Positions 5,543 through 52,778 of a DNA stretch of 64,000 nt are shown here, one piece after another (position 1 is the stretch's first letter; each line of letters starts with the position of its first letter). The stretch is from a virus (lineage: Duplodnaviria; Caudoviricetes). The position numbers were made by a program, and so were the translations under genes. The notes beneath the pieces were generated by a model. That model worked only from the letters and a program-made list of their open reading frames with translations. It was not told the origin of the DNA and did not search any database. The stretch is from IMG/VR virus record IMGVR_UViG_2513237329_000013, positions 1 through 64,000 of that record, one strand, 5' to 3'.

Positions 5543-5775
5543 AAATAGTTATTCGCCTTTCGTACAGTTGTAATATAGAGTGCGCCTAAACTGCTTTGCC
5601 TTGACACATGAAATAGGATTAAGCACAATATCCTCCCACCATGCAAGAAGCGTCCGTGCAAAAGCATCAAAAGAGCGGTTTCGGGTTTTATCCACGGGAA
5701 ACATTTCTCCTTTCGCAAAGGTCTCCGTCATCCTCAAAAGGACTACCGTATTTGACCATACCTAAAAAGGGTTGC

Positions 5776-38915: not shown

Positions 38916-40718
38916 TCAATTAAATAGTGGTACATACTCATACTCCGAACTATCCGACAACATATCGTGTTCAAGCATCTGAGCAAAATAATTACCGTAA
39001 GAGACCGAAGTATAGCGGTCTTTACGGTTGTTGTTGTTTACAATCTTAATAAGCCCTGTCTGTTCTCCACGCTCATATTCCAGATCAATCATCTCATTGA
39101 TAAGGGCAACCGTTTCAAGATATGGTCGCTCAAAGAAGAGCTGCGTGTCCACATCGGCAGTAGCATACTCAGGAATAAAGTTTGCAATTTCATCAACCGC
39201 CTCAGTATTACTAATTAACAGATCAATCATTCCGGAATTCAAAGCGTTTCTCATTGACTCAGCAATGTTGCTATTCGTTTCAAGCTGTGCTTTGATAATG
39301 TAAACATTTTCTTCTGCTCCAGCGATCTGAATACGATTAGCAACTTTCTCATCATTCATACATTTCCAAGGCTTATACTCCATATTGCGCTCTTCGTCAT
39401 ATAGAACCTTAGCAAGCATATCGTATACGGAAATACCTGCATTACGACCGTCCAAAACACAGTAATCCGCATTGAAATCAGTGTATAACTGCTTAATACG
39501 AATGGCCTGCTTGGTTGTTTCGCCGCCATGAACAGCCTCCATATAACTGACTTGCCGTCTATATCCACGCTTTACTTCGATATGTTCACCCTGAGTATCC
39601 ATAACTTTATACTCTTGGCTCTCCGGAAGTAAACGAATGCAAGAATAAATAGAGTTATCGGTGGCGTTACCGCCCTCCATAGCGATATCGCAAGACAAAA
39701 TACGAATTTCACCAACTTGCTTTGGAATATCATACTTGTTCTTCTGCTTCAAAAGCGCTTCGTCATTTCTTCTTGGATAGAAAGCTCTCTTCAATCTACG
39801 GTTACGATTAAGCTGTTCATAATTGAAGAAAGATTTTGCATTTTCCGCAATCATCTGGTTTTCATACTCAATCGCCCAGGAAATCGGATCGAGCTTCTTC
39901 CGTTCTTTGATCAAGAAGTTTCTCGTTTTGATATTGTGCTTCAGCGCAATGCTATAATCCATTGCAATTACGCACGAAGAACCATCTGTAAACATATCCT
40001 TAGTAAGAGTCTGGATGAGCTTCCACATCCAGTGGCTTTGATACCACGCAGAAGAAATATAAACTTCTTTTGGTTCTTCGACCATAGAAGAATACTCTGG
40101 AAGCTTCAGATAATCAGCCTGACGGATATATAGGAACGGCGAAAGAACACTATCAATGATATTCTTGACAATCATACGGAATTCTTCGTAGATCATTACG
40201 GTCGCACGATAACCACGAGCATTTTCATTTGCAGCAACAACAACAATGGAACTGCCATTCTTGAAAATCACTTCGATTTCATTTTGGTTATCTTTGAAAC
40301 TATCAATCTCAGCAGCCAATAACGGCGATTTTGGTATAAGCTCCTTTTTGATCTTCTCAGACACAATAAGACGAGCTTGCTTCTTGGTTGCAGACGCAAC
40401 AACAATTTTCGCCCCAGGTCGCAGAATAGCCTCTTTACATGCAAAGATAGCAATTAGAAATGATTTTGCCGCAGATCGCGCAGCGACAATACAAAAGCTC
40501 GGAACGAACTCCATCAAATACAAGATAATATGCTGATATAGATGAAGAACAATTCCAAAATAATGCTCTACAAATCTTGATGGGTTGCGACGATAGAATG
40601 TGATCCATTCCATAAGTCGCATAACATTCTCTGGCTTATGCAAATAATGCGTTGACGGAAAATGCTCATGTAGAGCAGCTTGCCGCTCATCCATTCTCTT
40701 GATATTATCCATACTCAA
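38916..40718 (-). CDS. Terminase large subunit
   Basis: AARSAAKS Walker A variant, ARGYRA..IYEE Walker B, LSCDIA and KDRY nuclease motifs. Confidence 0.92.
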   Translation of the reverse strand: MSMDNIKRMDERQAALHEHFPSTHYLHKPENVMRLMEWITFYRRNPSRFVEHYFGIVLHLYQHIILYLMEFVPSFCIVAARSAAKSFLIAIFACKEAILRPGAKIVVASATKKQARLIVSEKIKKELIPKSPLLAAEIDSFKDNQNEIEVIFKNGSSIVVVAANENARGYRATVMIYEEFRMIVKNIIDSVLSPFLYIRQADYLKLPEYSSMVEEPKEVYISSAWYQSHWMWKLIQTLTKDMFTDGSSCVIAMDYSIALKHNIKTRNFLIKERKKLDPISWAIEYENQMIAENAKSFFNYEQLNRNRRLKRAFYPRRNDEALLKQKNKYDIPKQVGEIRILSCDIAMEGGNATDNSIYSCIRLLPESQEYKVMDTQGEHIEVKRGYRRQVSYMEAVHGGETTKQAIRIKQLYTDFNADYCVLDGRNAGISVYDMLAKVLYDEERNMEYKPWKCMNDEKVANRIQIAGAEENVYIIKAQLETNSNIAESMRNALNSGMIDLLISNTEAVDEIANFIPEYATADVDTQLFFERPYLETVALINEMIDLEYERGEQTGLIKIVNNNNRKDRYTSVSYGNYFAQMLEHDMLSDSSEYEYVPLFN

Positions 40719-41734: not shown

Positions 41735-41810
41735 TGGTGCGCCAGAAGGGATTTGAACCCTTGACTTGTCGCTTAAAAGGCGACTACTCTACCCACTGAG
41801 TTACTGACGC
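41735..41810 (-). tRNA. tRNA-Lys(TTT)
   Basis: Cloverleaf; GTCGC-CTTTTAA-GCGAC; CCA encoded. Confidence 0.93.
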
Positions 41811-41970
41811 TTATTCAGTTCCGGTTTGCACGGTTTCCCCACTTATTTTAACTCAGTTGGTAACTCCCATTAGAGTAGCAGTGCTTTCGGTCTGCCAGTC
41901 CGTCCGCTTTTCACGGAGGGCATACGTTCCCAATAGAAGCTCATAAAGAGCAAATTGCCATTTCTGGCTT

Positions 41971-42046
41971 TGGTGGGACAAGAAGGGATCGAACCTTCGA
42001 CGCGCAGGGCTTCAACCTGCCGCTCTTCCATCTGAGCTATCGTCCC
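41971..42046 (-). tRNA. tRNA-Phe(GAA)
   Basis: Cloverleaf; GCAGG-TTGAAGC-CCTGC; CCA. Confidence 0.92.
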
Positions 42047-42127
42047 ATATAGAACCATTATGTATAACAAACCTTTCTATCGGAAATGCTCTTTCGTGTA
42101 AACTGATAGAAAAGGAGGCTATGCGTC

Positions 42128-42415
42128 ATGGTTGAATTTTCTCAAAGATTAAAACAACTGCGCAAAGAAAAACATTTAACTCAGGCGCAGGTTGCAGAAA
42201 GAATAGGAGTAACAGCCTCAATGGTGTCCTCATACGAAACGGACATCCGACTCCCATCCTACGAAGTTCTTGTGAAAATCGCTACGCTATTCGGCGTGAC
42301 AGTAGACTATATGCTCTGCCGTGAAGATAAAAGATTTATCGACATATCCAGTCTGTCCGATGATGAAGCTGCGGTTGTGTGTGATATGATAAACATACTC
42401 CTAAAAAAGAAGTGA
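42128..42415 (+). CDS. XRE-family HTH transcriptional regulator
   Basis: RLKQLRKEKHLTQAQVAERIGVTASMVSSYE..R.P; AGGAGG RBS; hairpin terminator at 42421-42443. Confidence 0.92.
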   Translation: MVEFSQRLKQLRKEKHLTQAQVAERIGVTASMVSSYETDIRLPSYEVLVKIATLFGVTVDYMLCREDKRFIDISSLSDDEAAVVCDMINILLKKK

Positions 42416-42451
42416 CTACCAGCCGTCCATTCGGGCGGCTTTTGTCATGTG

Positions 42452-42544
42452 TGGCGACGGAGGTAGGATTTGAACCCACGGACGGCTCATCACCGCCTCT
42501 TGTTTTCAAGACAAGCGCCATAAACCAGACTCGACCACTCCGCC
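42452..42544 (-). tRNA. tRNA-Ser(TGA)
   Basis: Long variable arm; CTTGT-CTTGAAA-ACAAG; CCA. Confidence 0.92.
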
Positions 42545-42664
42545 ATATAACTGGCTTTCATATGTATTTCAACGGGAATAGCCATACCCATCCATCCTAA
42601 GCCGCCCATATGCAGGCCAGAATCATATGATCTCGCACCTCATAAAGCGTGGTGCGACACGCTT

Positions 42665-42751
42665 TGGTGAGGGAGGTTGGATTTGAACCAACTCAGCCCG
42701 AAGGCAACGGATTTACAGTCCGCCCCAGCTCTCCAACTCTGGCGCTCCCCC
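42665..42751 (-). tRNA. tRNA-Tyr(GTA)
   Basis: Long variable arm; loop CTGTAAA; CCA. Confidence 0.92.
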
Positions 42752-42786
42752 ATATAAGGCCGCATTAGCGACCATAAAAAACCACT

Positions 42787-42861
42787 TGGTACTGGCGGTG
42801 GGGATTGAACCCACGACCTTATGATTAAGAGTCATCTGCTCTTCCTCTGAGCTACGCCAGT
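42787..42861 (-). tRNA. tRNA-Lys(CTT)
   Basis: Loop CTCTTAA; CCA. Confidence 0.9.
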
Positions 42862-42958
42862 ATAAAACAAGACACTTGTAAGGAAAAAGAAAGGGGTAGT
42901 GATACAATGGAGGTTGTAATAGGATGTTTCATTAAACAAATCGCTGCAAGTGTCTTTT

Positions 42959-43033
42959 TGGCATGAGGTAAAGGAGTCGAACCCTTATTTACGGTTTTGG
43001 AGACCGCAGTGCTACCATTTACACCAACCTCAT
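42959..43033 (-). tRNA. tRNA-Trp(CCA)
   Basis: Loop CTCCAAA; CCA. Confidence 0.9.
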
Positions 43034-43038
43034 ATATG

Positions 43039-43115
43039 TGGCGACGTATACGGGACTTGAACCCGTGACCTCCGGCGTGACAGGCCGGTGTTCTACTCTT
43101 CTGAACTAATACGCC
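43039..43115 (-). tRNA. tRNA-Asp(GTC)
   Basis: CCGGC-CTGTCAC-GCCGG; CCA. Confidence 0.93.
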
Positions 43116-43117
43116 AT

Positions 43118-43360
43118 TTATTTATCCCAATCTACAAGAGGGTATAAGTCATATGGACTATCGGCAGTTGCGATCTTCTCAAAACCACCATCAACAATGC
43201 ACCATAATGTGTGCTTGTGTTTTTCTGGATTCTGAGAAATGCAATATTCCTTTCCAGATCTGGTCTTGCATAAAACGCCAGTTCCACAATCTGATGCTGG
43301 AATTTTCTTTACAACCTTTCGTTCTTTATCAACTGATAATAAACTTGCTTTTCGCGGCAT
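43118..43360 (-). CDS. Hypothetical protein within tRNA cluster
   Basis: GAGGTG RBS; fills the gap between tRNA-Glu and tRNA-Asp. Confidence 0.7.
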   Translation of the reverse strand: MPRKASLLSVDKERKVVKKIPASDCGTGVLCKTRSGKEYCISQNPEKHKHTLWCIVDGGFEKIATADSPYDLYPLVDWDK

Positions 43361-43380
43361 AGTTTACACCTCTTTCGTGC

Positions 43381-43457
43381 TGGTGATGCGTAAGGGATTT
43401 GAACCCTTAAATTCCGCCGTGAAAGGGCGGTGACTCTACCAATTCGTCCAACGCACC
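43381..43457 (-). tRNA. tRNA-Glu(TTC)
   Basis: CCGCC-CTTTCAC-GGCGG; CCA. Confidence 0.92.
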
Positions 43458-43470
43458 ATAATATAAACTG

Positions 43471-43716
43471 TCATACTCTGACATATCCAGGTTTCATTCT
43501 ACCAGTACAGACATCATGAACCTTACCTATATGATATTTCGCACCGCTTTTATCAACGGCGACACAAAACACGGCTTTCCGATCATTTGGAAACTTCACA
43601 GAATATGACCCATCCGTTTCAAGATATATCGGAATTGGAAAATAATCAGATATTGCACGAGCTTTCTGACGAGCCTCTTTTAATGAAGCGAGTCCCTTCA
43701 TTTTCTTTCTCTTCAT
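43471..43716 (-). CDS. Small basic hypothetical protein within tRNA cluster
   Basis: AAGGA RBS; fills the gap between tRNA-Gln and tRNA-Glu. Confidence 0.65.
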   Translation of the reverse strand: MKRKKMKGLASLKEARQKARAISDYFPIPIYLETDGSYSVKFPNDRKAVFCVAVDKSGAKYHIGKVHDVCTGRMKPGYVRV

Positions 43717-43732
43717 AGATTCTCATTCCTTA

Positions 43733-43807
43733 TGGCTGGGGTAGTTGGACTCGAACCAACGATACGGGAGTCAAAGTCCCGTGCCTTAACCACTTGGCTA
43801 TACCCCA
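43733..43807 (-). tRNA. tRNA-Gln(TTG)
   Basis: CGGGA-CTTTGAC-TCCCG; CCA. Confidence 0.93.
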
Positions 43808-43816
43808 ATATTGATT

Positions 43817-43893
43817 TGGTACGCCAGACAGGACTTGAACCCATGACCTAAAGATTAGAAATCTTTTGCTCTATCCGATTGAGCTACTGGCGC
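43817..43893 (-). tRNA. tRNA-Arg(TCT)
   Basis: AAAGA-TTTCTAA-TCTTT; CCA. Confidence 0.92.
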
Positions 43894-43896
43894 ATA

Positions 43897-43983
43897 TGGT
43901 GCTGGCGGTGGGACTTGAACCCACACGGTATCTCTACCAACGGATTTTGAGTCCGTCGCGTCTGCCGATTCCACCACGCCAGC
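43897..43983 (-). tRNA. tRNA-Leu(CAA)
   Basis: Long variable arm; loop CTCAAAA; CCA. Confidence 0.93.
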
Positions 43984-44064
43984 ATATTTTAATTGCAGAG
44001 CGCCTTGTTTGGCTGATCAGTTAAAAGTTGATTCCATAAATAAGGTTGCTGTATGCGCTCTTCG

Positions 44065-44147
44065 TGGTACGGGTAACAGGAATCGAACCTGCACGGTTGC
44101 CCACCAGATCCTAAATCTGGCGCGTCTGCCAGTTCCGCCATACCCGC
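44065..44147 (-). tRNA. tRNA-Leu(TAG)
   Basis: CCAGA-TTTAGGA-TCTGG; CCA. Confidence 0.92.
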
Positions 44148-44364
44148 ATATTTCCCATCGCAATTATATAGCCGTCGCCATACAACAAGAGATGCGACCA
44201 TCTCATACGACAGGTTATATTCCACTTGGTTCTACATTCACTGACGGGCTGTGGACTACCGTGAGATTACCAACTCTCAAAAGGTTCGACGATTATTGAA
44301 TGCCTGCGATCATAGCATTTCTCCAAACCAATTTGTCAAGTAGAGATGTCACAAATGTTCGGAG

Positions 44365-44441
44365 TGGAGTGGATAGCGGGATTTGAACCCGCACAGTCTG
44401 CTTGGAAGGCAGAAATGCTTGCCGTTAAACATCATACCCAC
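44365..44441 (-). tRNA. tRNA-Gly(TCC)
   Basis: TCTGC-CTTCCAA-GCAGA; U73; CCA. Confidence 0.9.
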
Positions 44442-44492
44442 ACAAAGAAGACAATCATTTTTTAGAGTCTTAGTTGTCTTAATAATGACTCG

Positions 44493-44569
44493 TGGTGTCC
44501 CGTGACGGAATCGAACCGCCGACCTCCTGCTTGTAAGGCAGATGCTCTAACCTGCTGAGCTAACCGGAC
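44493..44569 (-). tRNA. tRNA-Val(TAC)
   Basis: Loop CTTACAA; one G-G mismatch in acceptor stem; CCA. Confidence 0.88.
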
Positions 44570-44729
44570 AAATAGGCCAATTCAAGGCATTGGCCTTGCC
44601 TCCAACTCTATGCTGTTGGGTCGCAGCAAGGTTTTACTCTAAAATCTTGCAAAAAGTCATCACTGCCAGACATGACGGTTTCATTCCCACTACGGTTTAT
44701 AGAGTAACCACCTCTTATGTGGACGGGCA

Positions 44730-44804
44730 TGGGGGCGGAGGTTGGATTTGAACCAACGACCACCAGCTTATGAGGCTGGTAAGCTACCACTGCTACACTC
44801 CGCT
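44730..44804 (-). tRNA. tRNA-Met(CAT), initiator-like
   Basis: A1:C72 mismatch, fMet-like D arm, loop CTCATAA; CCA. Confidence 0.82.
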
Positions 44805-44869
44805 AAGTAAAATTGGCGCTGTCATCCATTCAGACAGTCATTAAGTCGCAGTACGTTGTGACACCAATA

Positions 44870-44944
44870 TGGCTGGAACGATAGGACTCGAACCTACAAC
44901 CCTCCGATTAACAGTCGGATGCTCTACCATTGAGCTACGAACCA
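44870..44944 (-). tRNA. tRNA-Asn(GTT)
   Basis: TCCGA-CTGTTAA-TCGGA; two U-U mismatches in acceptor stem; CCA. Confidence 0.87.
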
Positions 44945-45113
44945 ATATTCTCACCGAGACGCAACATCATTTACACCCAATAGATAAAATCAAACTCATC
45001 TTTTATGTATAGAAATTTGAAGTTGCTGTAAGCGTCTCTAACAACTGCAAGGCACTTATGTACTTTCTATTATCCGCAAGAAAATCCTCCAAAGTTGCTG
45101 CGTGTGCCTTTTA

Positions 45114-45189
45114 TGGTCTGAGTAGCTGGTCTCGAACCAGCGACCTCGTGATCCCAAATCACGCGCTCTACCTACTGAGCTATACCCAG
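45114..45189 (-). tRNA. tRNA-Pro(TGG)
   Basis: CGTGA-TTTGGGA-TCACG; CCA. Confidence 0.92.
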
Positions 45190-45199
45190 ATTTGCTTTT

Positions 45200-45251
45200 G
45201 AGAGAATCAGTAAAAGCAGCATCGCCACGAGCAGGCTTCTCTCCTGATGCC
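45200..45251 (-). ncRNA. Minimal HDV-like (theta-type) self-cleaving ribozyme
   Basis: P1 GGCAUC/GAUGCU with G1.U wobble, P2 GAGAGAA/UUCUCUC, P3 GCC/GGC with loop UGCUCGU, P1.1 GC/GC, no P4, J4/2 CUGA. Confidence 0.8.
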
Positions 45252-45252
45252 G

Positions 45253-45667
45253 TGGAGCAGAGGGGAATCGAACCCCTGTCCGAAATTCCTACATGAACAA
45301 AACATTCTTACGCAATAGATAACAATTTGCATTTTGTCCTAAGACGAGCTGCGTGGTGCTATCAACCAGCTCAGAGCCGCACCAGTTTTGCGACCTCCAC
45401 CACCTTATTTCTTTTCACAGTGATAAGGAAAACTGCAATGTCAGTCTGATTCTTTATTACCGCAGATGCTTACCCAGACTAAAAGTGCATCGTTTAAGCA
45501 TTCATCAACTGCAATTAAGCAGCAATACCCTCCATAACAGCATACAGAGCGGGATGAATCATAACCACAATAGAATCGTTGTCATTTCATTTTTGTTTGA
45601 GCCTTAGGCGGTCTCCATACCTGCGTATTTCGTCCTATCAAAACCCCGTCGAACCCATTACTGCCCC
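45253..45667 (-). ncRNA. ssrA: tmRNA
   Basis: 5' GGGGCAG..GGUUCGACGGGG; 3' GGGGUUCGAUUCCCCU-CUGCUCC-A with G3.U70; internal tag frame ending GCU GCU UAA. Confidence 0.93.
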
Positions 45668-45680
45668 ATATTTAATTTTA

Positions 45681-45756
45681 TGGTCGGAGTAGAAAGAGTC
45701 GAACTTTCGACCTCACGATTATCAGTCGTGCGCTCTACCTACTGAGCTATACTCCG
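45681..45756 (-). tRNA. tRNA-Ile(GAT)
   Basis: CACGA-CTGATAA-TCGTG; CCA. Confidence 0.92.
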
Positions 45757-45871
45757 AAATAGACCATGCGTCCGTAGAACCTCGTCTGCAGCAGATAGGT
45801 TTTTAGCTGGAATAGCAGTCAAGTAATGAACTGAACCGCACAAACGCCAACATAACCAACATGGCACGATT

Positions 45872-45947
45872 TGGTGGAAACAATGAGAATCGAACTCACG
45901 ACCTCCTGCTTGCAAGGCAGGCGCTCTCCCAACTGAGCTATGTCCCC
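45872..45947 (-). tRNA. tRNA-Ala(TGC)
   Basis: G3.U70; loop CTTGCAA; CCA. Confidence 0.93.
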
Positions 45948-45953
45948 ATGTAA

Positions 45954-45973
45954 CCGTCCTCTTTCGAGGACGG
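45954..45973 (-). other. DGR target-recognition hairpin after VR2
   Basis: CCGTCCTC-GAAA-GAGGACGG; 6-bp core 20 nt after the stop codon, same as VR1. Confidence 0.85.
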
Positions 45974-45991
45974 ATTTTATTTGATTTGAGA

Positions 45992-46798
45992 TTAGGAGCT
46001 AAAAGCGGGGGCGAGGCCAAAAGAACCCCTGGCGTCGCCGGTGCCCGCGTTGCCGTTCGCGGACACACCGCAGAAGGTGCCGCTGGCGTCGTAGCACGGA
46101 GAACGCAACAGGTTACAACGACGATTTCCGTCATCATCTTCCTTATAGTAAGGAACATCCTCTTGCTTATAATATTCGTACCAATGCCCCTCGCCAGGCA
46201 TCGAATAGAAACAACGACCATACAGCTCTTTCTCGCTCTTGAGCCAAATCTTACAAACGCTCTTGATAATTTCCTTACTGCAATCGCCAGCGCTTGTAAG
46301 TTTAACAACCGGCTTAATAATTGCCTGCAACTCATCAGAGCAAAGAGAGAAGAACTCCGTATCCAGCCTACGTCTTACAACAGAAGCTTCATATCCGCCG
46401 CAATTCGTACTTTCGTCGTTCCACGACCAGTCCTCGTTGTAAACTCTGACCATATCCCAAGAGAGAGGTGCTTTTCCAGTCCCATCAGCAAGATCATCAT
46501 GGTTAAATCCGATAATCTGCCACACAGCAACAAATCCGTTCTTCATGTGGTCTTTCTTTTGTGCGCCAAGCGCAAATACTTCACGCGCCTTACCAGACAA
46601 TCCGATCTGATCAATTTCACCCCAAGAAAGATGGTTCAAATCCTTCAAAGGCATTGCAAGCGGCGCTTTACAAACAGTGTCAACAATATGTTCACTCGCC
46701 AAGCTATCATCGAAACTGAGAGTCACAGCATCGCCATCACAGACGATATTCATTGCCGAAAATTTGCTAAGATCCTTTGTTGCAATTTTGAACTGCAT
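45992..46798 (-). CDS. DGR target 2: stand-alone CLec-like (DUF6273-like) protein
   Basis: Shares LN..SW..I, I.GFNH, N.GG....R and L.A...P motifs with the target 1 C-terminal domain; ends in VR2. Confidence 0.9.
   Translation of the reverse strand: MQFKIATKDLSKFSAMNIVCDGDAVTLSFDDSLASEHIVDTVCKAPLAMPLKDLNHLSWGEIDQIGLSGKAREVFALGAQKKDHMKNGFVAVWQIIGFNHDDLADGTGKAPLSWDMVRVYNEDWSWNDESTNCGGYEASVVRRRLDTEFFSLCSDELQAIIKPVVKLTSAGDCSKEIIKSVCKIWLKSEKELYGRCFYSMPGEGHWYEYYKQEDVPYYKEDDDGNRRCNLLRSPCYDASGTFCGVSANGNAGTGDARGSFGLAPAFSS
46002..46106 (-). repeat. DGR variable region VR2 (remote)
   Basis: Gap-free match to TR 5777-5881; 23 mismatches at TR adenines and one silent C>T by hand count. Confidence 0.95.
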
Positions 46799-46842
46799 GA
46801 AACACACCCCTATAAAAATTATTTTGCTAATTCCTTAGAAAG

Positions 46843-47471
46843 AAAATTCAATACTTGAATCATACCTATCATTGAGCCTTCGCTCTACCTCCATTACCTT
46901 CTCACAATGTTCAGCCACCAGGGAGATAAGTCTGAGCTTCAAGGAGCGACCTTTAACTTCTTACCCCAGCCTTACACAGCGAACTGTATTAGGCCAATTC
47001 CTGCGCGGGATTGTTTACCCGCAAATTTCACCGTTCGTTCAGAAAATTTGATAGTTTCATACAATTTCTTTTTCATCATATCGTATTAAAGATCAAACAC
47101 CAAAACTGTCCTACGGCTACTTTAACCGACGACTTTCGTTATAGTCGAGTTTCTTCGACATCAAGACAGGAGCGCATTGTTGGCATTTCCTCTGGTTGTA
47201 CTGGTTGCCACGCCAGTATCCTTGAGGATTATTCTCCACAGGAGCGTCTATTGCTGCGCCCGAAAGTTCCGTGCTTTTTGTAGCGATAACTCTTGGCAAC
47301 ACACATTTTCGTTGGCAGTTTCCGCCTCCCAGCAATACATCACTGCATCACTGCCGTCTGGACAATAAAAGGTATCCCTCGTAAATCCAGCGGGAACTAT
47401 TGTGCGTCTCGGAGTGCTGACACACTTTATTCACCGAGTTAATCATAAGCATGATTCAAATATTGAATTTT
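46843..47471 (-). ncRNA. Large ornate ncRNA, ROOL-like (about 630 nt)
   Basis: No credible ORF; about 30-bp terminal helix joins the two ends; many internal hairpins including a UUCG-capped one; size and tRNA-cluster context fit ROOL as I recall it. Confidence 0.68.
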
Positions 47472-47480
47472 CAAAGATCA

Positions 47481-47556
47481 TGGAGCTGGCGACAGGACTT
47501 GAACCCGCAACCTGATGATTACAAATCACCTGCGCTACCAATTGTGCCACGCCAGC
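47481..47556 (-). tRNA. tRNA-Thr(TGT)
   Basis: Loop TTTGTAA; CCA. Confidence 0.92.
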
Positions 47557-47589
47557 ATATTGTTTAACTATGTCCTCTTGACATTATTG

Positions 47590-47618
47590 AGTATAACATA
47601 TAAGCACACGGTTGTCAA
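47590..47618 (-). promoter_or_regulatory. Near-consensus sigmaA promoter for the RNA cluster
   Basis: TTGACA-17-TATACT with extended TG, 33 nt upstream of tRNA-Thr. Confidence 0.8.
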
Positions 47619-47648
47619 TAGGAATTAGCAAAATAATTTTAGATTTTT

Positions 47649-47724
47649 TGGTGGCTGAGGCTGGACTTGAACCAGCGTCTCCGCTTTATGGGAGCGGCAA
47701 GAAAACCAGCTTCTCCACTCAGCC
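47649..47724 (-). tRNA. tRNA with CAT anticodon (Met or Ile2), atypical
   Basis: Cloverleaf; CCGCT-CCCATAA-AGCGG with C at position 33; CCA. Confidence 0.78.
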
Positions 47725-47756: not shown

Positions 47757-48041
47757 TCATTCTCGAATACTTCTTAAAAGTTCTGCTCCGGACTTAAACA
47801 CGACATTCTGGAACTCCGGAACAACGATGCTCTCTTTCGTCACTGGATGAAGAGCTGGATGCGACTTATACTTTTTCACATCAAATGTTCCAAACCCATA
47901 AATCGAAACTCGATCTCCGTTTCTAAGAGCATTCGCAATTTCATCAAAGATATCGTCAACGATATCCTTGACCATATACTTCTTATACGCCTTATTCTTC
48001 TGAGCAAGCGTATTTACCAAATCTGCTTTATTGATATTCAT
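47757..48041 (-). CDS. HU/IHF-family DNA-binding protein
   Basis: NKADLV..LA, V.IYGFGTF, HPVTKESI.VP, VFKSG. Confidence 0.92.
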   Translation of the reverse strand: MNINKADLVNTLAQKNKAYKKYMVKDIVDDIFDEIANALRNGDRVSIYGFGTFDVKKYKSHPALHPVTKESIVVPEFQNVVFKSGAELLRSIRE

Positions 48042-49276
48042 GCTGATGTATCGCTCCTTTGCGGGCGATAACGAGTCGTATCAAAGTCAATATCGTAAAA
48101 TGCTTTGACACCATTATAATCACAGACGCAAACCAACTGTTGCTGCGCTCCATAAATGCGCTTTCCAACACAGTAGTCATCCATACCGAGAAAGCTGCCA
48201 GCCATAATCGTTTTCACGCCTTGAACACTATCGGTCTTATTGTGATGCAAATGACCTGAAAGAATGGCGTACACAGGTTCTTTTGCCATTGTCTGAAGCG
48301 ATTGAACTTTTCCAGCAGATCCATCATAATCGCCATGTACACCAAGATAAGTCTTGCCGCGAATATCAAGCAAATACATCGTATCGTCGATCTTTCTGTA
48401 ATGATCAAACGACACATTCTCAAAAGATTGTAGACGAGCTTTCAAATACCACTCAACTAAATCGTCAAGACGCTCATGAATCGAGGCAACATCTTTCTCT
48501 TCAAGCCGAGAATGATTCCCAGCAACAGAAGAAAAGTAAACATTCTTAAAGTACCGGCTTAATGTAGACAAAAACTCCGCAAGAAGTTCAGACACTCCAA
48601 CGACCTGTTGAATAACATTTTCTCTGTTCGACACGGCAATAGACTTATGAATATTTCCGCTAATCAAGTCTCCATTTGCCCATACATAACAACTTTCCGA
48701 TCCATGCAAGGCGGAGATTTCAAGGATGCGATCCAGATATTCATTAAGAAGTTGCACACAAACATCGGAATTATAGTAGTTCCAATAGTTGTCCACACAC
48801 GCTCCAAAATGCAAATCGTTTAAGCTTACAAGCAAATCGCTCCCGCTCGACTCCATTACACATGGAACATAGTCAAGCCGAGGAATTACACCAGAAGTAA
48901 TTGCCCTCTCAAAAATATCAGAGTTTTCATCCTTGCGAGCCAGGTCACGCACAACTTTATTAAGAGCATTTCTCTGGTCGAAAAACCGCTGGCGTTCTTT
49001 CTTGAATTCAAGCATCTTCTGCTCAATCTCGTCAAGATATGCACTTCCGAGATCTTGCGTAGCTTTCTGCTTGAAGTATTTCATCACATGATAGCCAGAA
49101 TACGGCGTTACATTCGCCGCTTTACGAAGGCTGTCGTAATGAACATCAAGACCAAGCAGGTCAACGATATCCGACCACTCTAAGTCAGAAGGGTTCTGCT
49201 CAACCTTTATTTCAATCAGTCGTAGGCCATACTCATAACTATCTTCGTTTTCAAGCTGTTTATATTTTGGATTCAA
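48038..49276 (-). CDS. Calcineurin-like metallophosphoesterase with N-terminal helical domain
   Basis: DLHFG, GDLI, GNH, HGD and GHLH motifs. Confidence 0.88.
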   Translation of the reverse strand: MNPKYKQLENEDSYEYGLRLIEIKVEQNPSDLEWSDIVDLLGLDVHYDSLRKAANVTPYSGYHVMKYFKQKATQDLGSAYLDEIEQKMLEFKKERQRFFDQRNALNKVVRDLARKDENSDIFERAITSGVIPRLDYVPCVMESSGSDLLVSLNDLHFGACVDNYWNYYNSDVCVQLLNEYLDRILEISALHGSESCYVWANGDLISGNIHKSIAVSNRENVIQQVVGVSELLAEFLSTLSRYFKNVYFSSVAGNHSRLEEKDVASIHERLDDLVEWYLKARLQSFENVSFDHYRKIDDTMYLLDIRGKTYLGVHGDYDGSAGKVQSLQTMAKEPVYAILSGHLHHNKTDSVQGVKTIMAGSFLGMDDYCVGKRIYGAQQQLVCVCDYNGVKAFYDIDFDTTRYRPQRSDTSA

Positions 49277-50003: not shown

Positions 50004-52778
50004 TCATGCGACGCTACGCTGACGTCGTTTCTTCTCACGCTCATAATTGCGAATATGGATAGCCTGACAGTCATCGCAGCGCTTCTTATTTTTCACGATA
50101 CCGTCTACCTCAAACTCTTTTCCACAATCAATACACCGCAGTTTCTTTTTGCCGAGTGGGTGATATCCAGAGCAGCTCGTACATACCTTTTGCTGCGGTG
50201 AAAGAGGAACAAAACGCTCTCCACATTTCTTGCACTGAATAGAACCATCTGGGATATTTCGCTTGAGGTTTTCCAGAACGATATCACCAAAGCACATCCA
50301 GAAAACATTTTTCCTACGGCTATTCTTACTATGAAATAGATATTTCACAAGAATGTCGCAAACATCTAAGCGCTCAAGACAAATCTCGTCGAATTGCTTC
50401 AAGATATTGTCCCGAATATATGCAAAGTTCGAGTCATCATCATAAAAGCTGATCGAATAGCGATACTGCTTTTCCACATCATTGTACAGGTCAGTCACAG
50501 ACGATAGTAACTCAACCTGTTTCATCGGGTTACTAAGCATATACTGATATCTGAAGACACCAATATTCTTCGCGGCAAAAGACATCCGCTTATTAGGAAC
50601 GATGTGTTCAAGCTGATTCACAACACTATTGTTCATTCGCTGAACCTGAAATTTTGTTTTCTTTTTAGCGTGGATAAAAAAATGCGGCGCTTTCATACTC
50701 GTAATTCTTGCAAGACGAGCATTGATTTCATCTGGTCGAGTTGGCTTATACAGCGTCTTGGCATAGTCGATACAGAAGTTATTCTCCATACATAAGATTT
50801 TAATTGCTTCTATGTCAACATCCTCACCGTTCCAAATCTTCGTAATATCATTGCTAATAACACCGATATTGCCACCAGTCCATGCGGCGCGAAGCCCTTT
50901 GAAAATTTCCTCTGGTGTAATCGTAACAGCGCCAGCCTTTGCCATCTCGTAGTATAAAGGAACGATTCCTTCCATATTGCGCTCAGCAATAGACACAAGT
51001 AAGGAATCAGCGCATACGAGACTTTTATCTCCGTCGCAATCAAATTGTAGGATCTTTGAAATTAGATCATGACAGCTCGTATAGATAGCATTTTGAGAAA
51101 ACCACTTTTTCGTTGCACTGGTTACAACATTTTTACGAACAGCATGTTCACGATATAAGTGGGGTGAACGCAGACAGTCCAATTTACTCACTGTGCGATA
51201 AAGATAGCAAGACACCTCTCCATCTGCAAGCAAGCCAACAGGACTGCGATTTCCAAGAAACAGCCATTCGCAGAAAGCATAGAGATCTGGAATCAAGAAC
51301 ATATACTTTGCGCTCAAATCAATCTTTGCTGCTCTTGCCTCAGTAACAAGATTCTTCTTGATTTGCCGTAGCATCTCTTTTGTGTATGGGTCGGAGAGCA
51401 ATTCCGGATAGATACTAAGACACTCCTGAAAAGCATTCTTATTGCGATACTGTGTAGAAGCCCCGAACACATCCAGCATAGTATTCTTATCCGATGCAAT
51501 TTTAGCAATTTTGTCAATCGTCTTTCCAGCAAGCTGCTCAAGTTCATCTGTACTCAAATCTGTGAGTGTTTGAAGCATTTGATAGTTAAGCTTTGCATCA
51601 GGAATGAAGTCCTCTTCCTCATTACACTTACCGACAGTGCATCCATTTGCTAAAAACAAATCAATGTACTCTTGCCAATTCGCGTAATACTTGTACATCT
51701 TAAATTGACTTTTTGTAAAAATGACCTGGATACCCTCTGCGATTACATCATGTTCAAAACCATAGATGTCTGTTACCAAACCATGATTTACGGACGGATC
51801 GCGTTCGTTTGATTCTAAGATAAACTTATCAAACGGGAATACAGCAAGAAGCCCTTTTACCCACGGAAGACGAACCATAGTGTTTTTTGCATTACAAGAG
51901 GGAAGAACCATTCCGCAGCCATCCGTATGTGTAATTGGAATCTCCATATCTCTGCGCTCAACACTGTATGTTTTGTGATCAATAAAATCAACAGTTCCAC
52001 CAACCATCGTTTCCATATCATCTACAACGATAGTCTTTCTAATATCGAAATCTTCCCACAAATCAGTTGCGCTATTGCACAGTGCAAGATACGCCAGATA
52101 CTTATTGATATTGATTCCACCAAGCTCGTTGATTTTTTGAACGCTCAGTCCACACATAATGGTTTTTTGATACTTCTCCCAAACTCTTTCCTTAATGAAA
52201 ACAGTTTTCTTTGTTCTGATCTGTCCAGCAGATGCCGTAAAACAAATGTAGCGTTCTCCGTTAAAGGTATACCCATTTAGGATAAGATCTTCAATCACAT
52301 CGAAATAATATGTGCGAATAACCATGAAATCGTCATACAGCTTTCCTGTTTCCATGCCAAGTGTTCTTGTAAGCATCGACTCAAAAACAGAAATCACATT
52401 CTTATCAACCACATATTCAGTCCGTAACTCACGTTGCGAGCGATGTGCTTGAAGAAGTGATACAAGTTCAGACTTCTTAATCTTAATCATCTGGTTCGTA
52501 CCGCGAATTTCTTTCGCAATCTGTTTTACACGGGAACTATCCATCGCAACAGAAATCGGATCTGACTTTCCCATGCCATACAATTTACGAAACTGAGATT
52601 CAGCCTTCTCTTGTGTTATTTCTCCAGCACACAGCCGCTCAATAATTTCTCGCTCTGATTTTAATTTCGATTTTGAAGAGCAGTGCTTATTGATCTCAAC
52701 CTCAAGTGCCTTTTCTTCGTCGGTGTAAAACGCACTCGTGTCAAAACTATAAATATGGATTTGCCGATCAAGACTAAT
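50004..52778 (-). CDS. YonO-like single-subunit RNA polymerase with C-terminal Zn ribbons; probable ATT start
   Basis: TASAGQIR.KK, TDGCG, RLPWVKG, RSPH and catalytic DCDGD; frame stays open 65 codons upstream of the listed TTG. Confidence 0.88.
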   Translation of the reverse strand: MSLDRQIHIYSFDTSAFYTDEEKALEVEINKHCSSKSKLKSEREIIERLCAGEITQEKAESQFRKLYGMGKSDPISVAMDSSRVKQIAKEIRGTNQMIKIKKSELVSLLQAHRSQRELRTEYVVDKNVISVFESMLTRTLGMETGKLYDDFMVIRTYYFDVIEDLILNGYTFNGERYICFTASAGQIRTKKTVFIKERVWEKYQKTIMCGLSVQKINELGGININKYLAYLALCNSATDLWEDFDIRKTIVVDDMETMVGGTVDFIDHKTYSVERRDMEIPITHTDGCGMVLPSCNAKNTMVRLPWVKGLLAVFPFDKFILESNERDPSVNHGLVTDIYGFEHDVIAEGIQVIFTKSQFKMYKYYANWQEYIDLFLANGCTVGKCNEEEDFIPDAKLNYQMLQTLTDLSTDELEQLAGKTIDKIAKIASDKNTMLDVFGASTQYRNKNAFQECLSIYPELLSDPYTKEMLRQIKKNLVTEARAAKIDLSAKYMFLIPDLYAFCEWLFLGNRSPVGLLADGEVSCYLYRTVSKLDCLRSPHLYREHAVRKNVVTSATKKWFSQNAIYTSCHDLISKILQFDCDGDKSLVCADSLLVSIAERNMEGIVPLYYEMAKAGAVTITPEEIFKGLRAAWTGGNIGVISNDITKIWNGEDVDIEAIKILCMENNFCIDYAKTLYKPTRPDEINARLARITSMKAPHFFIHAKKKTKFQVQRMNNSVVNQLEHIVPNKRMSFAAKNIGVFRYQYMLSNPMKQVELLSSVTDLYNDVEKQYRYSISFYDDDSNFAYIRDNILKQFDEICLERLDVCDILVKYLFHSKNSRRKNVFWMCFGDIVLENLKRNIPDGSIQCKKCGERFVPLSPQQKVCTSCSGYHPLGKKKLRCIDCGKEFEVDGIVKNKKRCDDCQAIHIRNYEREKKRRQRSVA

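What the first reader, a model, noticed from the sequence alone, without database searches (positions are those of the whole stretch)
42869..45110. Four unexplained 'stem-CAGCRA' small RNA units placed right behind tRNA 3' ends
Seen on the minus strand: 42956-42869 (AAGACACTTGCAGCGA...CAAGTGTCTT), 44061-43997 (AGAGCGCATACAGCAA...GCGCTCT), 45038-44956 (GAGACGCTTACAGCAA...GCGTCTC) and 45110-45049 (AAGGCACACGCAGCAA...GTGCCTT). Each has a closing stem of at least 7 bp whose sequence varies but still pairs, a conserved WYRCAGCRA next to it, and a variable AU-rich interior. Three start 2-3 nt after the CCA of Trp, Leu(TAG) and Pro, and the fourth is tandem to the third. One interior carries a Lys-like anticodon loop (ATCAA-CTTTTAA-CTGAT). 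Inference: a family of acceptor-stem-like small RNAs such as tRNA decoys, Y-RNA-like ligands or protein sponges.
Basis: partly seen in the sequence, partly recalled or inferred. Interest (0 to 1): 0.75.

Follow-up and report, generated by a model that had tools for sequence, protein, structure and literature searches.

The report
Phage Y-like RNAs with ACAGCAA handle
The four small units between the phage's tRNA genes belong to a widespread, uncatalogued family of phage RNAs that share one short "handle" (a 7-bp closing stem plus ACAGCAA) and whose genes almost always accompany a protein shaped like the RNA-binding autoantigen Ro60, so they are most likely a new kind of Y RNA.

Summary
Each has a 7-10 bp closing stem, then 3 nt and CAGCRA. 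Three start 2-3 nt after an encoded CCA, and the fourth lies 10 nt after the third.

They are one family. A covariance model built mostly from other phages hits only these four in the 64-kb window. Related phages keep them at the same places with covarying stems.

The conserved part is a "handle": a 7-bp helix, NN, ACAGCAA, and a G after the 3' arm. The same 127-kb phage has at least eight more handles. They lie just upstream of a DUF2828/DUF7788-vWA gene at about 83.5 kb, outside the window. That protein's model matches Ro60 (Z 19.7).

- 77 of 80 diverse DUF2828 loci carry handles, 282 on the gene strand against 18 opposite.
- 46 of 48 viral records found through the RNA pattern encode DUF2828.
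- Cultured Listeria, Enterococcus, Staphylococcus, Bacillus, E. coli and mycobacterial phages show the same pairing.

No Rfam family matches the units, and I found no paper that defines the motif. The interiors vary. Unit 2 carries a covarying tRNA-Lys-like anticodon arm.

Best reading: Y-RNA-like partners of a divergent Ro60. Binding and function are inferred, not shown. This scan has noted the same system before in at least 107 other genomes.

The parts
42869..42956 (-). Unit 1 (88 nt). Handle AAGACAC-TTG-CAGCGA ... GTGTCTT followed by g. The interior has a pyrimidine tract containing CCUCC.
   Evidence: R1 20.8 bits, E 5.5e-3, not in training. Orthologues sit after tRNA-Trp in related phages and carry ACCUCCCUUUCU-like tracts (class 2).
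43997..44061 (-). Unit 2 (65 nt). Handle AGAGCGC-ATA-CAGCAA ... GCGCTCT followed by g. The cargo is a tRNA-Lys-like anticodon arm.
   Evidence: 47.1 bits, E 2.6e-10. There are 18 distinct orthologues, 14 of them between tRNA-Leu(tag) and tRNA-Leu(caa), with covarying closing stems: AGAGCGC, AGAGCAC, GGAGCAC, GGAACGC, GGGGCAC, AGGGCAC (class 0).
44016..44032 (-). Anticodon-arm mimic inside unit 2: ATCAA-CTTTTAA-CTGAT. It has 4 bp plus one A.C mismatch and the 7-nt loop CUUUUAA.
   Evidence: Orthologues have perfect 5-bp stems (ATCAA/TTGAT, and ATAGA/TCTAT in L058) and loops CUUUUAA, CUGUUAA or UUUGUAA. Such hairpins occur in 147 of 470 units against about 9 in shuffles.
44956..45038 (-). Unit 3 (83 nt). 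Handle GAGACGC-TTA-CAGCAA ... GCGTCTC followed by g. The interior hairpin is AGATGA-GTTTGATT-TTATCT.
   Evidence: 36.8 bits, E 1.9e-7, not in training. Orthologues have the loop UUUGGGU or UUUGGAU, which is tRNA-Pro(UGG)-like (class 1).
45049..45110 (-). Unit 4 (62 nt). Handle AAGGCAC-ACG-CAGCAA ... GTGCCTT followed by g. The interior hairpin is UUUCU-UGCGGAUAAU-AGAAA.
   Evidence: 35.1 bits, E 5.6e-7. Orthologues follow tRNA-Pro in related phages (classes 3, 6, 7, 9).
42787..45189 (-). The stretch of the tRNA operon that holds the units. Order along the minus strand: Pro, U4, U3, Asn, Met, Val, Gly, Leu(tag), U2, Leu(caa), Arg, Gln, Glu, Asp, Trp, U1, Lys(ctt). In this window the next tRNA begins 7-13 nt after three of the four units.
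   Evidence: Among 84 unique units of related phages, 40 start 2-7 nt after a tRNA 3' end, and most end 6-16 nt before the next tRNA.

Best explanation
The four units are small non-coding RNAs of a modular family.

Each has a conserved handle: a 7-bp helix formed by the two ends, then NN-ACAGCAA after the 5' strand, and an unpaired G after the 3' strand. Each also has a variable cargo. In unit 2 the cargo is a tRNA-Lys-like anticodon arm. In unit 3 it is a hairpin whose orthologues look like a tRNA-Pro arm. In unit 1 it is a pyrimidine tract like the 3' end of 16S rRNA. In unit 4 it is another hairpin.

They are most likely transcribed with the tRNA operon. Cutting at the neighbouring tRNAs would then release them.

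The handle is most likely the docking site for the phage's Ro60-like ring protein. This DUF2828/DUF7788-vWA protein is encoded at about 83.5 kb of the same genome, next to at least eight more handle RNAs. The units would then be the Y-RNA equivalents of this divergent Ro60 branch. As with Y RNAs, the handle would hold the protein and the cargo would engage a second partner, as tether, gate or decoy. The partner is probably an enzyme that acts on tRNA or rRNA during the conflict between phage and host.

Shown here: the family, its covariation, its genomic coupling to the protein gene, and the predicted Ro60 fold. Inferred: excision, binding and function.
For: (1) The units are a family.
- R1 hits only the four units in the window.
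- In 78 TerL-related loci there are 181 hits on the array strand and 2 on the other strand.
- Classes keep their place between the same tRNAs while their stems covary.

(2) The same genome holds a second cluster. There are open units at 81854-81909, 82128-82184, 83377-83440 and 83453-83488. Three tRNA-like genes have their anticodon loop replaced by a capped copy of the handle. All lie directly upstream of a DUF2828+DUF7788+VWA gene.

(3) The protein has a Ro60 fold.
- The AF2 model has pLDDT 93.
- The best 13 Foldseek matches are all Ro60/TROVE structures.
- VIA gives Z 19.7 over 419 residues to 1YVR, against 12.5 or less for matches to the vWA domain alone.
- The MIDAS residues are invariant.
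- It matches phrog_850 'RNA-binding protein'. GenBank annotators call homologues 'Ro-like RNA binding protein'.

(4) Coupling from protein to RNA. In 80 DUF2828 loci at 42-98% protein identity there are 282 handles on the gene strand and 18 opposite. 77 of 80 loci have at least one. 68 of 80 have one within 1 kb upstream or 0.5 kb downstream.

(5) Coupling from RNA to protein. 46 of 48 viral records found only through the RNA pattern encode DUF2828, including 25 of 26 records that are at least 90% complete. The base rate is 710 of 50,697 GenBank phage records.

(6) Cultured phages from five bacterial host genera in Bacillota, Pseudomonadota and Actinomycetota show it. A TROVE-type phage Ro locus in Bacillus phage G has a YrlA-like RNA but no handle.

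(7) Larger units in EFDG1 and JoeDirt hold a T arm, a closed acceptor hairpin and a D arm. They match Rfam YrlA at E 2e-8 to 2e-5.

(8) Published context.
- Bas63 gp130 resembles Ro60 and counters the Ppl defence (PMC11482910).
- In Listeria phage CKA15, very abundant unannotated RNAs lie within 2 kb upstream of the Rsr-like gene (PMC12282133).
- The Ro60 of Thermus phage phiLo binds phage-encoded Y-like RNAs (PMC12135203).
Against: - No binding, expression or processing data exist for this phage.
- The four units lie about 37 kb from the protein gene. They therefore fail the 'within 4 kb' criterion used for YrlA.
- The handle does not resemble the known Ro60-binding motifs GGUCCGA and GNCGAA. 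The YrlA model does not align to it.
- The protein is not recognised by the Pfam TROVE model. 'Ro60-like' therefore rests on a predicted fold.
- Interior folding of two units is no better than that of shuffles.
- The helix statistics are circular, because the rows were chosen by a scan that required pairing.
- Co-location could reflect a shared RNA-metabolism module rather than direct binding.
Confidence: 0.7

Rival explanations
1. The handle is a processing or stabilising signal. A 7-bp helix plus an unpaired 3' G imitates a tRNA acceptor stem with its discriminator base. RNase P, RNase Z or exonucleases would then cut or stop there. This would mature the neighbouring tRNAs or release free-standing small RNAs. 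DUF2828 would be only a frequent neighbour within RNA-metabolism modules.
For: - 40 of 84 unique units start 2-7 nt after a tRNA 3' end, and most end 6-16 nt before the next tRNA.
- The helix length is fixed at 7 bp and G follows it in 88% of units.
Against: - Units occur in tandem with no tRNA beside them in SEP9 and JoeDirt.
- A capped version of the handle sits inside tRNA bodies, where it cannot be an end signal.
- The invariant single-stranded ACAGCAA has no counterpart in tRNA.
- Coupling to DUF2828 holds across phage families whose other neighbouring genes differ.
- This reading is also compatible with the main explanation, because a Y-like RNA must be processed too.
Confidence: 0.12
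2. The units are free-standing decoys. The anticodon-arm and 16S-tail look-alikes would soak up host anticodon nucleases, tRNA-modifying enzymes or ribosome-targeting toxins on their own. The handle would serve only to close and protect the RNA.
For: - 147 of 470 units have a 5-bp stem and a 7-nt loop identical to real anticodon loops: CUUUUAA 27, CUGUUAA 11, UUUGGGU 10, CUUGAAA 10. Shuffles give about 9.
- tRNA-Lys(UUU) is a known nuclease target. Phage tRNAs are known to counter tRNA-cleaving defences. Both statements come from my own knowledge and were not checked in papers here.
Against: - About two thirds of the units have no such hairpin.
- This does not explain why a 7-nt single-stranded word and the 3' G are invariant from mycobacteriophages to coliphages.
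- It does not explain why the units track one protein gene.
- A decoy role for the cargo can coexist with protein binding at the handle.
Confidence: 0.1
3. The feature works at the DNA level, or it is a chance or transcriptional feature. Examples are inverted repeats for recombination or homing, terminators, or remnants of decayed tRNA genes.
For: - The units are inverted repeats in a region rich in homing endonuclease genes in some phages.
- 7-bp arms are short.
Against: - There is a strict strand bias with the flanking genes: 181 against 2 and 282 against 18.
- The stems covary, including through G-U pairs, and all 7 pairs show changes on both sides.
- No run of T follows the stems.
- There is no tRNA-model score on the units.
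- The family extends across distant phage families that share no other DNA similarity.
Confidence: 0.03

Closest known systems
Ro60 (Rsr) with Y RNAs: bacterial and phage YrlA, YrlB and Yrn1 (Rfam RF02553; Chen et al. 2014, PMC4201824), and Thermus phage phiLo Ro60 with Yrl1 and Yrl2 (PMC12135203)
   Same: - The protein is a ring of helical repeats plus a vWA domain with a MIDAS site.
- Several small RNAs are encoded beside it on the same strand.
- The ends of each RNA pair in a stem, with a conserved word on the 5' side.
- The RNAs are modular, and some carry a tRNA-like module.
- The genes lie among tRNA and RNA-repair genes.
   Different: - The protein is DUF2828/DUF7788, at 11-18% identity to solved Ro60 structures, and the Pfam TROVE model does not find it.
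- The conserved word is NN-ACAGCAA plus a 3' G, not GGUCCGA, GNCGAA or CGAA.
- Most members, including all four units here, are short (55-90 nt) and lack T and D arms.
- Copy number is high, about 12 handles in this genome.
- Some copies are grafted into tRNA bodies.
- No binding data exist.
Class I RNAs of dictyostelid social amoebae (Rfam RF01414; PMC7919456; search pattern in PMC5054030)
   Same: The signature is the same.
- Length is 42-65 nt, with a median of about 60.
- A short stem joins the 5' and 3' ends. Its structure is conserved but its sequence is not.
- A conserved word lies right after the 5' strand.
- The D. discoideum pattern is GTTGRC-CTT-ACAGCAA ... GTCAAC-TG, which contains the identical ACAGCAA.
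- The conserved ends AAG and CUGU compare with the phage consensus (A)AAGACAC ... GUGUCUU-G-U.
- The interior is variable, and there are many copies per genome.
   Different: - These are eukaryotic nuclear genes with their own promoter element (DUSE).
- The known binder is an RRM protein, Rnp1A.
- The authors found the class in no other organism.
- The Rfam model finds none of the phage units.
- Whether dictyostelids have a DUF2828 protein was not tested here.
- Convergence cannot be excluded.
Phage-encoded tRNAs that counter tRNA-cleaving defences (from my own knowledge; not checked in papers here)
   Same: Both are encoded in phage tRNA arrays. Both display anticodon loops of tRNAs that are frequent nuclease targets, such as Lys and Asn.
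   Different: The units are not tRNAs. They have no D or T arm, no CCA and no tRNA-model score, so they cannot be charged or decode.

Membership tests
Y RNA / YrlA (Ro60-associated RNAs) | Encoded within about 4 kb of the Ro60 gene, on the same strand (criterion of PMC4201824) | tested here: inconclusive
   Met for the family: 68 of 80 DUF2828 loci have a handle within 1 kb upstream or 0.5 kb downstream, and 282 handles lie on the gene strand against 18 opposite. Not met for the four units themselves. They lie about 37 kb from the gene, which sits on the other strand of the record, although the same genome has at least eight handles next to it.
Y RNA / YrlA (Ro60-associated RNAs) | Conserved Ro60-binding word in the 5' strand of the terminal stem (GGUCCGA in animals, GNCGAAN0-1G in bacteria) | tested here: not met
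   The conserved word is NN-ACAGCAA after a 7-bp helix. When YrlA aligns to EFDG1 units, it does so through the tRNA-like domain only.
Y RNA / YrlA (Ro60-associated RNAs) | tRNA-like domain (T arm, closed acceptor hairpin, D arm), scored by Rfam RF02553 | tested here: not met
   No YrlA match overlaps the four units, even at E up to 5. Larger family members in EFDG1 and JoeDirt score 34-45 bits, below the gathering score of 69.
Y RNA / YrlA (Ro60-associated RNAs) | Physically bound by the Ro60 protein | not testable with these tools
   This needs RIP/CLIP or gel-shift assays.
Ro60 / TROVE proteins (the partner, outside the window) | Ring of HEAT-like repeats followed by a vWA domain with a MIDAS site | tested here: met
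   The AF2 model has pLDDT 93.3. The top 13 Foldseek matches are all Ro60. VIA gives Z 19.7, 419 residues aligned and rmsd 4.0 to 1YVR. D302, S304, S306, T375 and D407 are invariant.
Ro60 / TROVE proteins (the partner, outside the window) | Recognised by the Pfam TROVE model PF05731 | tested here: not met
   The protein matches PF11443 (DUF2828) and PF25043 (DUF7788) instead. TROVE finds nothing in four phages that carry DUF2828.
Dictyostelid Class I RNA (RF01414) | Short stem joining the ends, a conserved 11-nt word (CCUUACAGCAA in D. discoideum) next to the 5' strand, and conserved ends AAG and CUGU | tested here: inconclusive
   The architecture is shared, 7 of the 11 nt (ACAGCAA) are shared, and the AAG start and G-U end match the phage consensus (PMC5054030, PMC7919456). 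I had no dictyostelid sequence to score with R1.
Dictyostelid Class I RNA (RF01414) | Scores with the Rfam covariance model | tested here: not met
   The best matches in the whole phage genome reach 12.1 bits (E 2.2) and lie elsewhere. None falls on a unit.
tRNA | Cloverleaf recognised by ARAGORN or Rfam RF00005 | tested here: not met
   There is no call on any unit.

The most novel reading that the evidence does not exclude
The phage handle RNAs and the dictyostelid Class I RNAs may be one ancient RNA class. Its common partner would be the DUF2828 branch of Ro60-like proteins, a Pfam family that papers mention for plants. I did not test whether dictyostelids have it. If so, a second and unrecognised Ro/Y-RNA-type particle spans phages, bacteria and eukaryotes. 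Its cargo would be exchangeable modules: anticodon arms, whole tRNA bodies and 16S-tail look-alikes. In phages it would serve against RNA-targeting host defences.
Probability: 0.3. Interest if true: 0.92.

Novelty: new variant of a known kind. Interest (0 to 1): 0.78.

Why it matters
Ro60 and Y RNAs are a classic but still poorly understood particle, known from autoimmunity, RNA quality control and bacterial RNA repair.

This work points to a second, much larger phage branch with a simple and searchable RNA signature. The branch is present in workhorse phages: relatives of Felix O1 and Bas63, Listeria phages of the P100/A511 type, Staphylococcus and Enterococcus phages, and mycobacteriophages.

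The reading would explain several loose ends:
- the unannotated gaps and 'tiny ORFs' in phage tRNA regions;
- the very abundant unexplained RNAs seen in Listeria phage CKA15 (PMC12282133);
- the guess that Bas63 gp130 works with Y RNAs against the Ppl defence (PMC11482910), which would become directly testable.

The exchangeable cargo suggests a general way for phages to display RNA look-alikes on a protein platform. The shared signature with amoebal Class I RNAs gives a concrete hypothesis about RNAs whose function has been open since 2004.

Tried and rejected
- **Rfam.** At gathering thresholds on the whole window, and leniently on 42780-45200, nothing falls on the units.
- **Rfam Class I RNA model on the whole genome.** No unit is hit.
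- **Retron-like reading** (a1/a2 repeats plus an AGC branching G; the RT-2 RNA lies at 5535-5760). I dropped it. No reverse transcriptase accompanies the units, and they track DUF2828 instead.
- **Small-intron reading** of the three interrupted tRNA-like genes at 82.8-83.3 kb. ARAGORN's intron calls are arbitrary and mutually inconsistent. The insert is a capped copy of the handle. Whether it is ever removed stays open.
- **Plain motif count.** RCAGCRA alone is common, with 61 matches against 44 expected. Only the combination with the helix is informative.
- **Direct DNA similarity of the array to GenBank phages.** Only tRNA matches appear.
- **PDB sequence search with the protein.** No hit.
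- **Paper search for DUF2828.** Only incidental mentions in plant and tardigrade papers.
- **Sources not held.** The supplement of Chen et al. 2014 and the 2020 Annual Review are not held. I therefore could not check which 22 phages had YrlA calls.
- **ESM Atlas.** It returned only the protein's own family.
- **Helix covariation counts on A2**. These are circular because the rows were selected for pairing. I rely on strand bias and on orthologue classes instead.
Full report
**Setting**

The window is the first 64 kb of a 127,251-bp IMG/VR virus record. On its minus strand lies a tRNA operon at 41735-47724 with 21 tRNAs. The operon also holds a tmRNA (45250-45667) and a ROOL RNA (46855-47462). 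A large terminase gene lies just downstream at 38916-40718. Homologues of the partner protein are named from Lachnospiraceae MAGs, so the host is probably a gut Firmicute.

**The observation**

The tRNA coordinates confirm the spacing. Units 1, 2 and 4 begin 2, 3 and 3 nt after the encoded CCA of tRNA-Trp, tRNA-Leu(tag) and tRNA-Pro. Unit 3 begins 10 nt after unit 4.

A mechanical scan for a perfect 7-bp stem, 3 nt and CAGCRA returns these four, all on the minus strand. It returns one other place in 64 kb. Shuffles give about two hits summed over five spacings and both strands.

The closing stem survives in every minimum-free-energy fold. The interiors are weakly structured, with z-scores from -0.6 to -3.2.

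**A conserved family**

I fetched 78 viral loci through the neighbouring terminase, at 37-100% protein identity. The same geometry occurs there 181 times on the array strand and twice on the other strand.

The 84 distinct units fall into classes that keep their place between the same tRNAs while their sequences drift.
- The class of unit 2 mostly sits between tRNA-Leu(tag) and tRNA-Leu(caa). Its closing stem appears as AGAGCGC, AGAGCAC, GGAGCAC, GGAACGC, GGGGCAC or AGGGCAC, each with a matching 3' arm.
- Its internal hairpin keeps a 7-nt loop: CUUUUAA, CUGUUAA or UUUGUAA.
- In L058 the hairpin stem changes on both sides, from AUCAA/UUGAU to AUAGA/UCUAU.

Across the 84 units the conserved part is:
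- a 7-bp helix whose 5' strand in this clade is RRRR-C-R-C;
- two variable bases;
- ACAGCAA;
- a U-rich start of the interior;
- a G after the 3' arm, in 79 of 84.

A covariance model was built from 60 diverse units, 58 of them from other phages. It hits only the four units in the window. Two of these were not in its training set.

**The second cluster and the partner gene**

The same scan on the whole genome found further units on the plus strand at 81854-81909, 82128-82184 and 83377-83440. A short one lies at 83453-83488.

Between them lie three sequences that the Rfam tRNA model matches, but with 44-55-nt inserts in the anticodon loop. Each insert has the form GYGNNNN-loop-NNNNCRC-NNN-CAGC(A/T)A. 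This is the same helix and word, with the far end of the helix capped by a small loop.

In other phages, 31 of 35 such capped handles sit in a tRNA scaffold.

Directly downstream is a 514-aa gene with Pfam DUF2828, DUF7788 and VWA_2. It matches phrog_850, 'RNA-binding protein', at E 6e-140.

**The protein has a Ro60 fold**

The family is large. It has 7057 clusters at 50% identity. With a 72-sequence alignment, AlphaFold2 gives pLDDT 93.3 and pTM 0.92.

Foldseek against the PDB returns Ro60 structures as the 13 best matches. These include frog and human Ro60, Deinococcus Rsr and Thermus phage phiLo Ro60. All have probability 1.0 and align over about 480-580 columns.

VIA-align gives Z 19.7 to 1YVR over 419 residues. 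Matches to the vWA domain alone stay at 12.5 or below. The MIDAS residues are invariant.

Sequence methods do not see the relationship. There is no PDB sequence hit. The Pfam TROVE model finds nothing in four phages that carry DUF2828.

**Coupling, tested in both directions**

*Protein to RNA.* I collected 80 viral loci around DUF2828 homologues at 42-98% identity.
- The strict scan gives 184 handles on the gene strand and 1 on the other.
- A relaxed scan (any 7-bp helix, then NN-RCAGCRR) gives 282 against 18.
- 77 of 80 loci have at least one handle.
- 68 of 80 have one within 1 kb upstream or 0.5 kb downstream of the gene.
- The C-R-C end of the helix turns out to be specific to one clade. 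ACAGCAA and the 3' G are general.

*RNA to protein.* I searched IMG/VR with an exact pattern for one stem variant, AAGACAC-NN-ACAGCAA-N25-55-GTGTCTTG. It has 22 fixed bases.

Of 48 of those records that could be searched whole, 46 encode a DUF2828 homologue. So do 25 of the 26 that are at least 90% complete. The base rate among GenBank phage records is 710 of 50,697.

**Cultured phages**

Handles lie beside the DUF2828 gene on its strand in six cultured phages.

| Phage | Handle units by the scan |
|---|---|
| Listeria phage WIL-1 | three, just upstream of the gene |
| Enterococcus phage EFDG1 | three |
| E. coli phage HY02 (Felixounavirus) | four |
| Mycobacteriophage JoeDirt | three |
| Bacillus phage Nate | five |
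| Staphylococcus phage SEP9 | three in tandem after the stop codon |

Model R1 finds 15 of these, all on the gene strand. Several were not in its training set.

Two EFDG1 units and one JoeDirt unit enclose a T arm, a closed acceptor hairpin and a D arm. They match Rfam YrlA at 34-45 bits, with E from 2e-8 to 2e-5. This is below the gathering score, and the match runs only through the tRNA-like part.

As a contrast I looked at Bacillus phage G. Its Ro gene is a weak TROVE match and not DUF2828. It has a YrlA-like RNA nearby but no handle. This is a single control.

**Cargo**

Among 470 distinct open units, 147 hold a 5-bp stem with a 7-nt loop of the form YU-NNN-R-N. Mononucleotide shuffles give about 9.

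The loops are those of real tRNAs. Read as anticodon loops, they are:
- CUUUUAA (Lys), 27;
- CUGUUAA (Asn), 11;
- UUUGGGU (Pro), 10;
- CUUGAAA (Ser), 10;
- CUGCAAA (Cys), 7.

Sixteen of the 147 are T loops. Fifty-seven units carry a T-loop-like word and so are tRNA-like.

The four units of this window compare as follows.
- Unit 2 carries the Lys-like arm, with one A.C mismatch in this genome.
- Orthologues of unit 3 carry a Pro-like loop. The copy here has an 8-nt variant.
- The class of unit 1 carries ACCUCCCUUUCU-like tracts, which resemble the 3' end of 16S rRNA. That resemblance comes from my own knowledge. The pattern CCTCC[CT]TT occurs in 10 units and in none of the reverse complements.
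- Unit 4 has a conserved hairpin that is not anticodon-like.

**What is published**

Y-like RNAs next to TROVE-type Ro60 are known in bacteria and in 22 phages. The criterion was 'same strand, within 4 kb', with the motif GNCGAAN0-1G (PMC4201824). Thermus phage phiLo Ro60 binds two phage-encoded Y-like RNAs that carry a CGAA motif. With host PNPase it forms a RYPER-like complex (PMC12135203).

For the DUF2828 branch I found only conjectures.
- The PhageMaP preprint reports that Bas63 gp130 resembles Ro60 and counters the Ppl defence. It guesses that nearby 'tRNA genes' may be Y RNAs (PMC11482910).
- A multi-omics study of Listeria phage CKA15 reports three very highly transcribed unannotated regions within 2 kb upstream of an Rsr-like gene. 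It raises Y RNAs as one possibility (PMC12282133).

None of the papers I read, and no Rfam family, defines the ACAGCAA handle.

**A lead from earlier notes of this scan**

The scan's earlier notes describe the same system in at least 107 other genomes. They also describe it in an overlapping window of this genome. I reached the second cluster and the protein before I read them. I re-tested their claims here.

One note pointed to the Class I RNAs of dictyostelids, and I checked the papers.
- The search pattern used for D. discoideum is GTTGRCCTTACAGCAA, a gap of 0-120 nt, then GTCAACTG (PMC5054030).
- The class is 42-65 nt long, with a 6-bp stem joining the ends and an 11-nt word next to the 5' strand.
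- It has conserved ends AAG and CUGU, a variable interior and many copies.
- The authors report it in no other organism (PMC7919456).

The phage consensus is (A)AAGACAC-NN-ACAGCAA ... GUGUCUU-G-U, with a median length of 64 nt. This is the same signature. However, the Rfam Class I model does not detect any unit. I could not test dictyostelid genomes for DUF2828. Homology therefore remains a hypothesis.

**Mechanism**

*Shown:* a conserved RNA family with a fixed handle and exchangeable cargo; tight two-way genomic coupling to one protein family; and a confidently predicted Ro60 fold for that protein.

*Inferred:*
- the units are cut out of the tRNA transcript, since tRNAs flank them at 2-3 nt and 7-13 nt;
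- the handle docks on the Ro60-like ring;
- the cargo engages a second factor, as Y RNAs do when they tether Ro60 to PNPase.

A role in conflicts over tRNA and RNA integrity fits the neighbours. These include RtcB in the Listeria phage and tRNA arrays in several others. It also fits the Bas63 result. It is not shown.

**Rivals**

The main rivals are a pure processing signal, free-standing decoys and a DNA-level element. The tandem units without tRNAs, the capped copies inside tRNA bodies, the invariant single-stranded word and the strand bias all argue against them.

**Verdict**

I file the family as a new variant of a known kind, the Ro60/Y-RNA particle. It fails the sequence-level membership tests for YrlA and for TROVE.

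Noticed in passing
window 50004-52583 (-): An 859-aa ORF matches Pfam RdRP (PF05183, E 4e-15). This is the cellular-type two-barrel RNA polymerase family, so the phage may have its own YonO-like or crAss-like RNA polymerase. The YonO/crAss comparison comes from my own knowledge.
   Followed up: no
window 45992-46807 (-), 46855-47462 (-), 5535-5760 (-): A DUF6273 protein gene lies between tRNA-Ala and a full-length ROOL RNA (394 bits). An RT-2 RNA lies about 40 kb away. Another first-stage note reads the DUF6273 gene as a remote target of a diversity-generating retroelement. I did not check that.
   Followed up: no
window 44148-44364, 44570-44729, 42047-42451 (-): Long spacers inside the tRNA operon (217, 160 and 405 nt) have no tRNA, no handle and no Rfam match (the 405-nt one). 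Two small ORFs inside the array (43118-43360 and 43471-43716) have no Pfam match.
   Followed up: partly
G000 82800-83314 (outside the window; L080 4801-5314): Three tRNA-like genes have their anticodon loop replaced by a capped handle plus linker. In other phages the remainder of an anticodon loop (for example CUUGUAA) sometimes follows the insert. It is open whether these are processed into tRNAs or act as handle-tagged tRNA bodies.
   Followed up: partly
L274 1471-2022 (Listeria phage WIL-1): A ROOL-like RNA (87 bits, E 3e-16, below the gathering score of 99) lies about 1 kb upstream of the handle units. The region is annotated as a row of 20-40-aa 'hypothetical proteins', which are probably misannotated RNA genes. 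ROOL, tRNAs, handle RNAs and the Ro60-like gene travel together here, as they do in the window's phage.
   Followed up: no
viral records G002, G010, G011, G016, G018, G020 and others; L018 about 7813: Many DUF2828 genes in other gut-phage records contain one or two in-frame TAA codons. ARAGORN calls a tRNA with anticodon UUA ('tRNA-Stop(tta)') right after a class-2 unit in L018, where relatives have tRNA-Ile(tat). This may point to TAA read-through or recoding in some of these phages.
   Followed up: no
window 48038-49276 (-); L278 5027-6268: A metallophosphatase gene lies beside the tRNA/ROOL region here. Its Metallophos_2 match is weak (25.5 bits, below the cut-off of 27). One also lies two genes downstream of the DUF2828 gene in Bacillus phage Nate. 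It may be a recurring member of the module.
   Followed up: no
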